Source: Chiloscyllium plagiosum (lineage: Eukaryota). Taken from it: a stretch of DNA of 22,428 nucleotides. Shown here in pieces: positions 4,848 through 21,210 of the stretch (its first letter is position 1; each line of letters opens with the position of its first letter). The notes beneath the pieces were generated by a model, which was not told where the DNA came from, did not search any database, and worked only from the letters and a program-made list of their open reading frames with translations. Made by a program: the position numbers and the translations under genes. The DNA lies in the NCBI RefSeq assembly GCF_004010195.1, contig NC_057718.1, positions 72,803,187-72,825,614 on the forward strand, in the 5' to 3' direction.

Positions 4848-5014
4848 GTGGGGGCGGGGGTTCGCGTAGTGTGCTGCTGCCTAGTCTCCTGAACGGGGAG
4901 TAGACTTCACAGAAAACTCCAAGCCCCCCAGAGGAAATCACTAAACCGAACATTCAATTATCTGAATGAAAAATAGTGCCCGCCCATCTCATTCAGATAA
5001 TCGAGGTTCCTCTG
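4848..5014. mobile_element. One end of a Tigger/pogo-like non-autonomous DNA transposon
   Basis: Ends in ttcagataatcgaggttcctctg followed by TA (5015-5016); subterminal inverted repeat attatctgaatga / tcattcagataat. The other terminus is not seen. Confidence 0.5.
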
Positions 5015-5259
5015 TAATTGGAAGAGGGGAAATTATACTGCTATTAAGACAGGAGCTGTGAATATAAATTGGGAACAATTGTTCTACAGGAAATGCACAA
5101 TAGAAATATGGAGGCTGTTTAAGGAGCACTTGTTGCAAGTGTTGGATAAGTTTGTCACACTGAGACAGGCAAGATTTGAAGATGCTGGTGTTGGACTGGG
5201 GTGTACAAAGTTAAAAATCACAACACCAGGTTATAGTCCAACAGGTTTAATTGGAAGCA

Positions 5260-5294
5260 CACTAGCTTTCGGAGCGACGCTCCTTCATCAGGTG
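5260..5294 (-). ncRNA. Minimal type I hammerhead ribozyme motif, mirror copy in the DOP1A sense orientation
   Basis: Minus strand CAC-CTGATGA-A-GGAGC-gtc-GCTCC-GAAA-GCT-A-GTG. Confidence 0.7.
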
Positions 5295-5313
5295 ATAATC
5301 ACCTAATGACTAT

Positions 5314-5348
5314 CACCTGATGAAGGAGCATCGCTCCGAAAGCTAGTG
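5314..5348 (+). ncRNA. Minimal type I hammerhead ribozyme motif (Penelope-associated)
   Basis: CAC-CTGATGA-A-GGAGC-atc-GCTCC-GAAA-GCT-A-GTG: core boxes, 5-bp stem II, palindromic AGCT in place of stem III, CAC/GTG stem I. Activity not shown. Confidence 0.7.
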
Positions 5349-6560
5349 TGCTTCCAATTAAACCTGTTGGACTGGAACCTGGTGTTGTGTGATTTTTAAC
5401 TTTGAGACAGGCAAGGAATCGTAAGGTGAAGGAGCCTTGGATGATAAGAGGAGAGGAGCTTCTCGTCAAGAGGAAGAAGGAAGCAAGGATGTGGCATAGC
5501 TTTACAGGATTACAACGTAGCTAGGAAAGAACTCAAAAATGAACTGAGGGGGCACGAGAAAGCCTTGGCAGGAAGGATAGGGAAAACCCAAAGGCGTTCT
5601 ACATTTAGGTGAGGAATAAGGGAATGATCAGAGAATGTGTGGGGCAGTTCAGGGATAGTGAAGGGAACTGGTACCTGAAGTCTGAAGTAGTAGGGGAGGC
5701 CCTAAATGAGTTTTTTGTTTCAGTATTCACTAGAGAGGGGAATCTTGTTGATAGTGAGAACACGGTGGAGCAGGTTAATAGGCTTGAACAAACTGATATT
5801 AAGAAAGAAGATGTGTCGGAAATTCTGGGAAACATCAAGATAGGCAAGTCCTCAGGGCCATACCAGATATATCCAAGGTTACTATGGAAAGTAAGGAATG
5901 AGATTGCTGAGCCTCTGGCAATGATCTTTGGATCCTCACTCTCGACGGGAGTAGCACCGGATGATTGCAGGGAGGCGAATGTTGTTCCTCTGTTCAAGAA
6001 AAGGAATAGGAAAATCCCTGGGAATTACAGACCAGTCAGTTTTACATCTGTGGTAAGCAGGGTACTGGAAAGGATTCTGAGAGATAGGATTTATGATTAT
6101 TTGGAAAAATGGTTTGATTAAAGATGCCTCACAAACCTTATTGGGTTGAGGATGTGACGAGAGAAGTTGACGAATGTCAAGCAGTAGATGTGGTGTACTT
6201 GGATTTCAGTAGCGTATTTGATAAGGTTTCCCGTGGTAGGCTCATTCAGTAAGTTAGGAGGTATGGGTTATAGGGAAACTTGCTGTCTGGATACAGAATT
6301 GACTGGCCAAAAGACGACAGCAAATGGTAGTGGATGTAAGGTATTTTGCTTGAAGGTCGGTGACCAGTGGGGTCCCACAGGGATCTGTTCTTGGGCCTCT
6401 GCTCTTTGTAGCTTTTATAAAAGTGACTTGGATGAAGAAGTGGAAGGGTGGGTTAGTAAGTTTGCAATGACACACAGGTCAATGGTGTTGTAGACAGTGT
6501 CAAGGGCTGCTGCAGGCTACAAGACTGACAGTATGCAGAGCTGGGCTGAGAAATGACAGG

Positions 6561-7373: not shown

Positions 7374-7465
7374 CGAAAACTGTGTAGTGCTGGAAAAGCA
7401 CAGCAGGTCAGGCAGCATCTGAGGAGCAGGAGAATCAATATTTCGGGCATAAACCCTTCATCAGG
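7374..7465 (-). mobile_element. Single-arm Penelope-derived insertion with hammerhead core and 12-bp TSD
   Basis: AATCTTCTCACT at 7362-7373 and 7466-7477; minus strand CTGATGA-A-GGGT-ttat-GCCC-GAAA-TATT-GATT. Confidence 0.8.
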
Positions 7466-14579: not shown

Positions 14580-14922
14580 GTCCCAGAAGGCTGCCCTCTC
14601 ATTAGAGAGAAACAACTGGTGGTGAGTTTAACCTGAGGGTTTACATGCCTCAGGCAGGGCTTTCCTGTGGCTCAGTGGTAGTGTGCCCAACCCTTGACTG
14701 AGAGAACCAGGTTCAAGTCCCACCTGCTCCAGTGGTATGTAATAACATCTCTAAACAGGTTGATTAGAAAAGTAGGTTAAAGAAAAATAAAGTGACTCAG
14801 GCAAGGAGCAAGGTTGTAACACAGAACCTTCACAGTGACACCAATAGCCAGTAACAGAAATCGAACCTGCGCTTTCAGCGGCACTTGACATCGCAATCAG
14901 CCTTCCAGCCAAATGACTACCA
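14580..14922 (-). mobile_element. Old tRNA-derived SINE (family not assigned), interrupted at 14657-14795
   Basis: Minus strand box A-like tagtcatttgg, box B-like ggttcgatttc, and a cctgagg...cctcagg hairpin in the body. Confidence 0.55.
14657..14795 (+). mobile_element. Short tRNA-derived SINE with 8-bp TSD
   Basis: Box A tggctcagtgg, box B ggttcaagtcc, A-rich tail; CTCAGGCA at 14649-14656 and 14796-14803. Confidence 0.75.
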
Positions 14923-20574: not shown

Positions 20575-21210
20575 ACTGCTGGGGCACTACCAGGAGGGTT
20601 GCCAGAAGCCAAAAGGTCCAGGTTCAAGTCCCACCTACTCCAGAGATATATAATAACATCTTCAAAAAGGTTGCTGAGAAAATGTACAAGGTTCAAGTCC
20701 CACCTGCTCTCGAGGTATATTACAGCATGTCTGAACAGGTTGATTAAAACAAGCAGATTCCTAGGTCTCTTATGGTAGTCTCCCTCTGTCTGACCAGGAG
20801 ACCCGGGTTTAAATTCCACCTGCTCCAGAGGTATACAATAACATATCTAAGCAGGTTGATCAGAAAATACATTTTTTAAAAAAAAAGGGGAGTCCTTGAA
20901 TGGCTGATGTGCTACAGTAGTCAGTCATTCCCTGGTCTCTTGGCCAGAAGGTCTGGTTTCAAGTATGAGGCAGTGAGGTCTGCAGATGCTGGAGATCAGA
21001 GTTGAGAATGTGTTGCTGGAAAAGCACAGATCAGCAGCATCTGAGGAGCAGGAGAATCAACATTTTGGGCCCTGAGCCCTTCCTCAGGAATTCTTGAAGG
21101 ACTCCGGCCCAAAACGTCGATTTTCCTGCTCCTCGGCTGTTGCCTGACCTGCTGTGCTTTTCCAGCAACATACTCTAGTTTCAACTATCACCTGCTGTAG
21201 AGGTGTGCCT
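20575..21210 (+). repeat. Head-to-tail array of four short tRNA-SINE units
   Basis: Repeated ggttcaagtcccacct(g/a)ctc..gag.tat...aacat...aggttg near 20621, 20691 and 20806, plus a fourth unit near 20955 split by an insertion; same family as 14657-14795. Confidence 0.7.
20967..21177. mobile_element. Palindromic Penelope-derived mini-element (second family), both hammerhead cores decayed
   Basis: Inverted arms centred on GAATTC 21088-21093; TSD GTTTCAAGTAT 20956-20966 / GTTTCAACTAT 21178-21188; left extension gcagatgctggag. Confidence 0.8.

What the first reader, a model, noticed from the sequence alone, without database searches (positions are those of the whole stretch)
5174..5402. Palindromic mini-retroelement with an intact minimal hammerhead core on each strand
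Seen: a 229-bp insert with a perfect 13-bp TSD, two inverted arms of about 90 bp and a one-sided extension of about 30 nt. Each strand reads CAC-CUGAUGA-A-GGAGC-loop-GCUCC-GAAA-GCU-A-GUG. Known: Penelope-like elements carry minimal type I hammerheads in their pseudo-LTRs, with stem III reduced to a palindrome that is thought to need dimerisation; inverted pseudo-LTRs with a short 3' extension are typical of them. Inference: this is an ORF-less unit reduced to inverted pLTR plus pLTR-tail, possibly mobilised in trans as its own family. A transcript from either strand holds one ribozyme plus its antisense, so cleavage (predicted after A5345 on plus) would compete with long-hairpin folding.
Basis: partly seen in the sequence, partly recalled or inferred. 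Interest (0 to 1): 0.75.

Follow-up and report, generated by a model that had tools for sequence, protein, structure and literature searches.

The report
Head-to-head Penelope retrotransposon end stub
This 229-base mirror-image insertion is real, but it is one of very many short end-stubs of what is likely a Penelope-type jumping gene rather than its own palindromic family: it was likely built on landing from two short DNA copies of the front of the element's RNA, and its two ribozyme motifs are predicted to be silenced by the hairpin they sit in.

Summary
Observation confirmed: 229-bp insert, perfect 13-bp TSD, two ~95-bp inverted arms, a 32-nt one-sided tail, and a minimal hammerhead core on each strand. 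The Penelope link holds indirectly: the same hammerhead (34 of 36 nt) lies at the end of an RT plus GIY-YIG-type element in two metagenome contigs. No such ORF was tied to this family in the host. The replicating-palindrome idea is not supported. In three DNA runs the arms are very abundant with sharp shared 3' ends, but depth at this centre is 0.1-0.7% of the adjacent arm bins, and the junctions shown all differ. In RNA, 606 reads leave into upstream sequence and 2-3 cross this centre. On either strand the antisense arm is transcribed first and buries the ribozyme (54-66 kcal/mol). Sense RNA is polyadenylated 12-15 nt after an A(T/A)TAAA inside the arm, upstream of the tail. Best reading: a twin target-primed, internally initiated run-off stub, a known Penelope insertion layout. 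This scan has noted it often before, in this genome and in at least 36 genomes.

The parts
5161..5173 (.). left target-site duplication, 13 bp
   Evidence: exact match to 5403-5415
5174..5205 (-). 32-nt one-sided 'tail'; 5174 is the family's outer 3' end (inferred outer RT start)
   Evidence: 1315, 1012 and 988 contigs leave into heterogeneous flanks at 5173 in three DNA runs, agreement 0.38-0.39
5206..5297 (-). left arm: pLTR end read on the minus strand, starting 6 nt upstream of hammerhead C3
   Evidence: family reads carry a different letter from 5298 on
5260..5294 (-). minimal type I hammerhead motif (stem I 3 bp, stem II 5 bp, palindromic AGCU in place of stem III); predicted cut after 5263
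   Evidence: 34 of 36 nt identical to the motif in L002
5246..5251 (-). poly(A) signal ATTAAA (AATAAA in 33-49% of family depth); family RNA ends at about 5234 and 5231, followed by a GU-rich stretch
   Evidence: 994 of 2676 RNA reads laid carry poly(T) loose ends there; geometry
5298..5308 (.). copy-specific junction: 11-nt fold-back copy of 5286-5296 with one mismatch
   Evidence: depth at 5305 is 0.12-0.70% of the flanking bins
5309..5402 (+). right arm: pLTR end read on the plus strand, starting 8 nt upstream of C3 and ending at the inner 3' end (inferred inner RT start), no tail
   Evidence: 279 contigs leave into heterogeneous flanks behind 5400 in run X1
5314..5348 (+). minimal type I hammerhead motif; predicted cut after A5345
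5357..5362 (+). mirror poly(A) signal; 233 reads carry poly(A) behind 5373
5403..5415 (.). right target-site duplication, 13 bp
5001..6121 (+). host of the insertion: a decayed LINE ORF2 fragment (CR1-like from recall, not from a call)
   Evidence: frame restored on removing the insert; only a weak RVT_1 hit, E 0.012, at 5609-6118; far lower depth than the insert

Best explanation
The insert is a truncated, head-to-head copy of the end of a very abundant repeat that is likely an endonuclease-positive Penelope-like retrotransposon, likely assembled at this site from two short cDNAs, one primed on each cut strand. Shown: the TSD, the arms, the one-sided tail, two sharp family 3' ends about 30 nt apart, a rare centre, and polyadenylation of sense RNA inside the arm. 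Inferred steps: (1) the element's RT/GIY-YIG protein nicks both strands 13 nt apart. (2) Each 3' end primes reverse transcription internally on the element RNA, one at the outer start (giving the tail) and one at the inner start, as shown in vitro for the anole element PAc. (3) Both cDNAs stop just past the front edge of an uncut hammerhead, probably the RNA's 5' end. (4) The two 3' ends are joined by repair, which left the 11-nt fold-back scar. The hammerheads are passengers from the pLTR: a transcript of the whole insert is predicted to zip into one long hairpin before the ribozyme can fold, so this copy is most likely inert.
For: Family abundance and fixed 3' ends: summed contig depth on the arms is about 0.3-6.6 million against about 0.002-0.07 million on the flanking LINE; 1315, 1012 and 988 contigs leave at 5173. 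Rare centre: depth at 5305 is 0.70, 0.27 and 0.12% of the flanking bins. Of 15 joints shown (of 724), 3 are empty-site joints, 6 end at 5376 beside a mismatch private to this copy and were dropped, and the other 6 all differ, at depth 12-390. RNA: 304 + 302 reads continue into upstream family sequence at 5294 and 5297 against 2-3 across this centre; on the single arm, 733 continue upstream against 26 on the 11 fold-back joints shown. Penelope link: 2 of 2 metagenome hits to the hammerhead pattern (near-identical, so one family) carry PLE coding sequence. L002 has a CxxC linker and GIY-YIG-type region about 750 nt upstream of the motif on the same strand, and L001 has an inverted RT fragment. 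These two copies also have different head-to-head junctions (about 375 in L001, about 109 in L002). Poly(A) sites at 5234 and 5231 lie upstream, in the sense direction, of both 3' ends, so that RNA end cannot template the tail. The right arm carries 2 more template letters than the left arm, which fits two separate cDNAs. 5 of 5 arms in the window's 3 TSD-bounded inserts begin within about 8 nt of C3. Literature: two-strand cleavage and extension and two internal RT starts that define the tail (PMC11167929); inverted 5'-truncated copy and 30-40 bp tail at one end (PMC8557442, PMC3846280). Folding.
Against: No host genome was available, so no autonomous partner of this exact family was found and no centres were counted on assembled copies. 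Downstream of the hammerhead, L002 does not align to the window above shuffles (208 of 1000 score as high), so the Penelope link rests on the 36-nt motif, 26 nt of which were fixed by my search pattern. Contig assemblies break at perfect palindromes and hairpins are under-sequenced, so palindromic centres are probably under-counted. 60-95% of the depth at 5305 carries G, a simpler centre shared by 18-39 contigs per run. The RNA 5' end was not measured. The poly(A) evidence comes from one run; a second run of the same sample laid 0 reads. PMC3846280 explains such junctions by self-priming instead, and the 11-nt scar shows that some fold-back synthesis did occur here.
Confidence: 0.7

Rival explanations
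1. A single target-primed cDNA stalled at the hammerhead's front edge, folded back and copied itself (or an antisense template self-primed). The inversion is then copy-specific but needs no second priming event.
For: 5298-5308 is a fold-back copy of 5286-5296. PMC3846280 (Discussion) reads palindromes at inverted junctions as self-priming. Variable centres fit equally well.
Against: The right arm starts with 2 template letters that the left arm lacks, and it ends at the family's second fixed 3' end (279 contigs at 5400). A plain self-copy gives neither without a further rule. PAc extends both strands in vitro (PMC11167929).
Confidence: 0.18
2. One reading: a short palindromic non-autonomous unit is transcribed whole and mobilised in trans as its own family, this copy being a member with a later duplication at its centre.
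For: A simpler centre recurs: 7166 of 7557, 864 of 923 and 732 of 1210 depth units at 5305 carry G, in 39, 18 and 26 contigs. pLTR ends alone are enough for mobilisation in trans in Adineta (PMC3846280). Palindromes are under-represented in contigs.
Against: That centre is under 1% of arm depth and is also what a fixed RNA start would give repeatedly. Other junctions are many and differ. A full transcript is a -165 kcal/mol duplex. Only 2-3 RNA reads cross this centre. A second family in the window shows the same layout with its own centre, plus a solo arm.
Confidence: 0.08
3. A TIR DNA transposon (MITE) or a microRNA hairpin that resembles a hammerhead by chance.
For: Inverted repeat with a TSD; Rfam gives hairpin microRNA hits at 5247-5361.
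Against: All Rfam hits are below gathering scores (best 54 of 90 bits). The repeats are not terminal, since 32 nt lie outside on one side. Most family RNA is single-armed. The same motif ends an RT/GIY-YIG-type element.
Confidence: 0.04

Closest known systems
Insertion layout of endonuclease-positive Penelope-like elements (Pen2a_Av in PMC3846280; overview in PMC8557442; PMC8969392)
   Same: Inverted 5'-truncated pLTR at the 5' end, head-to-head junction with a local palindrome, 30-40 bp tail at one end only, TSD (9-10 bp in Adineta, 13 bp here).
   Different: Both copies here are cut down to about 95-125 nt of pLTR with no ORF between them, and both start at the hammerhead's front edge.
Minimal hammerheads (min-HHR) in metazoan PLE pLTRs (PMC4209133)
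   Same: CUGANGA and GAAA boxes, a bulged base between positions 9 and 10.1, G10.1-C11.1 pair, palindromic 15.2-16.2, no stem III. That paper also reports pairs on opposite strands 100-700 bp apart and mostly single motifs from truncated PLEs.
   Different: Stem I is 3 bp here (4-5 bp in the schistosome consensus); the two cores are 26 nt apart and fully complementary; no cleavage data for this family.
PAc (Poseidon of Anolis carolinensis; PMC11167929)
   Same: Two fixed 3' ends about 30 nt apart that define a tail, and a hammerhead upstream of them. Copies appear to come from uncut RNA, and PAc inserts without needing cleavage.
   Different: PAc's ORF starts at stem II, whereas the ATG in this core is followed by a stop after 9 codons. 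The relative with the same motif has a CxxC linker, which PMC8557442 gives for the Neptune and Nematis clades, not Penelope/Poseidon.
Non-LTR retrozymes (bioRxiv 10.64898/2026.07.22.740005)
   Same: Short, ORF-less, hammerhead-bearing PLE derivatives, also found in one chondrichthyan genome.
   Different: Retrozymes are head-to-tail tandems that allow dimer cleavage; this is head-to-head, which blocks it.

Membership tests
EN+ Penelope-like element insertion | pLTR belongs to an element with a telomerase-like RT plus GIY-YIG ORF | tested here: inconclusive
   Met for a relative with a 34/36-nt identical motif (L001, L002). Not shown for this family in the host: no genome, 0 hits in the window.
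EN+ Penelope-like element insertion | inverted 5'-truncated pLTR in head-to-head arrangement | tested here: met
EN+ Penelope-like element insertion | 30-40 bp tail at one end; two fixed 3' ends | tested here: met
   32 nt; pile-ups at 5173 and 5400
EN+ Penelope-like element insertion | target-site duplication | tested here: met
   13 of 13 nt
Minimal PLE hammerhead | catalytic boxes, bulge after A9, G10.1-C11.1, palindromic 15.2-16.2 | tested here: met
   against the features listed in PMC4209133
Minimal PLE hammerhead | preferential conservation of the core and stems | tested here: inconclusive
   Between families the motif is kept while downstream sequence is unalignable, with 7 of 7 positions outside the search pattern identical. 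Within the family G12 decays at its CpG (9-10%) like neighbouring CpGs (8-16%), so genomic copies show no selection.
Minimal PLE hammerhead | stem II covariation | tested here: inconclusive
   The pair count on a 7-row sequence-only alignment found 0 two-sided changes and did not beat shuffles; the alignment misplaces the loop gap and 4 rows are decayed. Within the family the non-CpG variation falls in the loop.
Minimal PLE hammerhead | self-cleavage as a dimer or with protein help | not testable with these tools
   Predicted blocked in the full palindrome.
Replicating palindromic mini-family | most copies share one centre and length | tested here: not met
   centre depth under 1% of arms, varied joints, with the caveat of assembly bias
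Non-LTR retrozyme | head-to-tail tandem units each with a hammerhead | tested here: not met
   arms are inverted
MITE / TIR transposon | terminal inverted repeats at both ends | tested here: not met
   32 nt lie outside the repeat on one side

The most novel reading that the evidence does not exclude
The Penelope pLTR works like a retroviral U3-R-U5: RNA starts at the hammerhead's front edge, is polyadenylated about 60 nt downstream in the 3' copy, and is reverse-transcribed from two internal starts just beyond. Stubs like this one are twin 'strong-stop' cDNAs, one per nicked strand, that failed to jump to the RNA's 3' end. That would explain inverted pLTRs, one-sided tails and partial tandems from a sense template, and would make the many stubs a map of the RNA start and of in vivo ribozyme cuts (the best-supported fold-back joint, 5260/5294, could be an arm starting at the cut site).
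Probability: 0.45. Interest if true: 0.6.

Novelty: new member of a known kind. Interest (0 to 1): 0.3.

Why it matters
As an object it is ordinary: a dead stub with a published layout and a published ribozyme type. Its value lies in mechanism. How Penelope elements make inverted pLTRs is called undefined in PMC8557442, and PMC3846280 proposed an antisense template. The geometry here (both arms starting at the hammerhead front, two fixed 3' ends, a poly(A) site upstream of the tail) gives a testable sense-template, two-primer model. The family's poly(A) signal is also in use in one RNA run, so its many copies may end host transcripts.

Tried and rejected
Host genome: none held, so no genome-wide BLAST. 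Pattern scans: viral contigs 0 loci, and no relative; prokaryote genomes 0 loci. Rfam gave no hammerhead family, only sub-threshold hairpin microRNA hits. Run search: no RNA holder on record listed. Run X22 laid 0 reads, so it is no test. Neither lay listed a place where many molecules begin or end; the library type cannot show a 5' end or a cut. Pfam found nothing on the L002 endonuclease ORF, and the PDB sequence hits for it were not informative and were not pursued; the assignment rests on homologues. One protein aligned past the L001 junction; the extension was poor and crossed a stop, 1 of 117 matches, so the junction stands. The covariation count was null. Single arms fold only weakly (z -1.3 and -1.9). 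Look-ups of earlier findings by sequence and by nearby place returned nothing. Paper searches for a shark Neptune description (0 papers), for a strong-stop model of PLEs (2 listings, neither on it by title) and for pLTR polyadenylation (2 listings) found no paper stating these points; the library lacks most subscription papers, Repbase and Dfam, so this is not proof of novelty. I considered reading the 5260/5294 joint as proof of in vivo cleavage and rejected that: a common 2-nt deletion clips alignments at 5260, and deletion across a hairpin through the CAC repeat gives a similar join.

Full report
1. Observation. The insert spans 5174-5402 (229 bp) between two identical 13-bp copies at 5161-5173 and 5403-5415; no other length from 5 to 19 matches. 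Removing the insert and one copy restores an open frame in the surrounding decayed LINE fragment. A joint 5160->5403 with 13 shared letters is seen in 4 of 4 runs laid, which may reflect paralogous LINE copies. The arms align over 98 columns with 4 mismatches and a 2-nt gap, and a 32-nt tail lies on the left only. Each strand has CUGAUGA, a bulged A, a 5-bp stem II, GAAA, GCU, A, GUG, with the predicted cut after 5345 (+) and 5263 (-). A relaxed scan found 3 cores in the window against a chance mean of 0.165. The window looks like a shark genome; that rests on my recall of its SINEs and on earlier notes, not on a test.

2. It is a huge family with fixed 3' ends. No genome was held, so I used sequencing runs. 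Of 24 runs listed, 20 hold part of the stretch, under 4 organism labels and 10 studies. I laid 4 of them on 5040-5540 and 4 on the single arm 5174-5297; 5 distinct runs in all. Summed contig depth on the arms is about 0.3-6.6 million against about 0.002-0.07 million on the flanking LINE. This is not a copy number, but 1315, 1012 and 988 contigs leave into unrelated flanks exactly at 5173, and 279 leave behind 5400 in one run. These two ends match the tail-end and the inner end of the two arms.

3. The centre is not shared. Depth at 5305 is 0.70, 0.27 and 0.12% of the neighbouring arm bins. Of 724 joints, 15 were shown: 3 are empty-site joints, 6 end at 5376 next to a mismatch private to this copy and I dropped them, and the remaining 6 all differ, at depth 12-390. 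On the single arm, 15 of 24 joints were shown; 11 change strand, at depth 6-238, and several sit at 5222 or 5260, where common 2-nt indels clip alignments. In raw RNA reads, 304 and 302 leave at 5294 and 5297 into two consistent upstream sequences, while 2-3 cross this centre. On the single arm 733 go upstream and 26 fold back. Against my reading: 60-95% of the small depth at 5305 carries G, a simpler centre found in 18-39 contigs per run, and both contig assembly and library preparation under-report perfect hairpins. The share of palindromes in the genome is therefore unmeasured.

4. Link to Penelope proteins. A 26-letter hammerhead pattern found 2 loci in metagenome contigs and none in viral contigs or prokaryote genomes. 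The two loci are nearly identical over their shared part and count as one family. Their motif matches the left arm at 34 of 36 nt, including 7 of 7 positions outside the pattern; downstream sequence does not align above shuffles (208 of 1000). L002 has an ORF at 48-581 with a CxxC linker and a GIY-YIG-type region, about 750 nt upstream of the motif on the same strand. It has no Pfam hit itself but is 44-47% identical to two RT-bearing or linker-bearing proteins and 52% identical over 83 residues to a catshark protein; relatives carry RVT_1 and GIY-YIG above the curated cut-offs. L001 has an inverted RT fragment. The two contigs have different head-to-head junctions, the same variable-centre pattern. 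Five PLE proteins gave 0 hits in the window and 10 in these loci. So the motif is a PLE pLTR motif, but the autonomous parent of this family in the host was not found.

5. The ribozyme. The motif has the features listed for minimal PLE hammerheads in PMC4209133 (parts 1-2 of 4 read), which also reports opposite-strand pairs and low activity even as dimers. Within the family the non-CpG variation falls in loop II (32-45% at 5277), while G12 decays at its CpG at 9-10%, like neighbouring CpGs at 8-16%: inserted copies show no selection on the core. A formal covariation count was null on a poor 7-row alignment. In a transcript of the whole insert the core starts at nt 144 (+) or 112 (-), after its complement. 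It is predicted 96-100% paired as it emerges, and forcing the hammerhead fold costs 54 and 66 kcal/mol. Both arms extend about 30 nt past the predicted cut, so they were copied from uncut RNA (inference).

6. A poly(A) site inside the arm. In the one informative RNA run, 542 + 452 of 2676 reads laid on the single arm carry poly(T) loose ends at 5231 and 5234; the mirror site shows 233 poly(A) reads behind 5373. These lie 12-15 nt after ATTAAA, which is AATAAA in 33-49% of DNA depth; the next 20 nt hold only 4 A, so internal priming is unlikely. Hammerhead-strand RNA therefore ends upstream of both family 3' ends, and that RNA end cannot template the tail. A second run of the same sample laid 0 reads. 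Two earlier notes on this genome mention such a signal in use; I had seen it before reading them.

7. Mechanism. PMC11167929 (parts 1-2 of 4 read) shows that the anole element nicks and extends both strands, starts reverse transcription at two internal sites that define the tail, and needs no ribozyme cut for insertion. Applied here (inference): two nicks 13 nt apart prime two cDNAs, one from the outer and one from the inner start. Both stop 6 and 8 nt upstream of C3, and end-joining leaves the 11-nt fold-back scar. The right arm has 2 template letters more than the left, modest evidence for a separate cDNA. Two more TSD-bounded inserts of another family lie in the window: a 207-bp palindrome with a one-sided tail (20967-21173, 13 of 15 nt TSD) and a 92-bp solo arm (7374-7465, 12 of 12 nt TSD). 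All 5 arms begin within about 8 nt of C3; these are 3 events, partly selected for holding the motif. I reached twin priming from the paper and the data; reading the stop as run-off at the RNA's 5' end was sharpened by earlier notes and is untested here. PMC2377424 (passages) places the Drosophila Penelope start site within the pLTR. The rival is fold-back self-priming, proposed in PMC3846280 (passages and Discussion read).

8. Comparison and novelty. Inverted 5'-truncated copies, a 30-40 bp tail at one end and hammerheads in pLTRs are standard for EN+ PLEs (PMC8557442, PMC8969392 and PMC6765202, passages read). Retrozymes are head-to-tail tandems (bioRxiv 10.64898/2026.07.22.740005, part 1 of 5 and passages read). 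The dimer-cleavage paper of Lunse and colleagues I saw only as a reference entry and as cited in PMC6765202. This scan holds 259 findings with the same key words in at least 36 genomes, several in this genome. Searches found no paper on this shark family, on a strong-stop model or on pLTR polyadenylation, but the library is incomplete and repeat databases were not searchable.

9. Verdict. A real feature and a new member of a known kind. The replicating-palindrome claim is unlikely (about 0.08). Interest 0.3, carried by the testable two-primer run-off model rather than by this copy.

Noticed in passing
window 20967-21173: A second, older head-to-head palindrome (207 bp) of a different hammerhead-bearing family, with a one-sided tail on the left and a 13-of-15-nt TSD (20952-20966 / 21174-21188); both cores are decayed.
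   Followed up: partly
window 7374-7465: A 92-bp solo arm of that second family with a perfect 12-bp TSD, starting 1 nt before the core and lacking the tail, inserted in a LINE fragment whose frame is restored on removal.
   Followed up: partly
window about 1790-1903: A third hammerhead-like repeat end whose first box reads CGGAAGA instead of CUGANGA; no clear TSD found. Could be decay or a family-level core variant.
   Followed up: no
family 3' end, 5173 and 5183-5188 loose ends; L002 end: Loose-end consensus in two subfamilies suggests that longer copies continue into an ATG right after the tail, and contig L002 ends on ATG; this may be the ORF start.
   Followed up: no
joint 5260/5294 and 5260->5317: Best-supported fold-back joint (depth 238 and 124; 6 RNA reads). 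It could be one arm starting at the ribozyme cut of the 2-nt-shorter variant joined to an arm starting at stem I, or an alignment or deletion artefact.
   Followed up: partly
L001/L002, hammerhead at L002 1325-1365: A marine eukaryote PLE shares 34 of 36 nt of the motif with this family while the rest of the pLTR is unalignable; its stem I has 5 bp against 3 bp here.
   Followed up: partly
window 14695-14771, 20606-20867: Four 77-nt repeats containing a B-box-like GGTTCAA motif, three of them close together; probably tRNA-derived SINE heads (label from recall).
   Followed up: no
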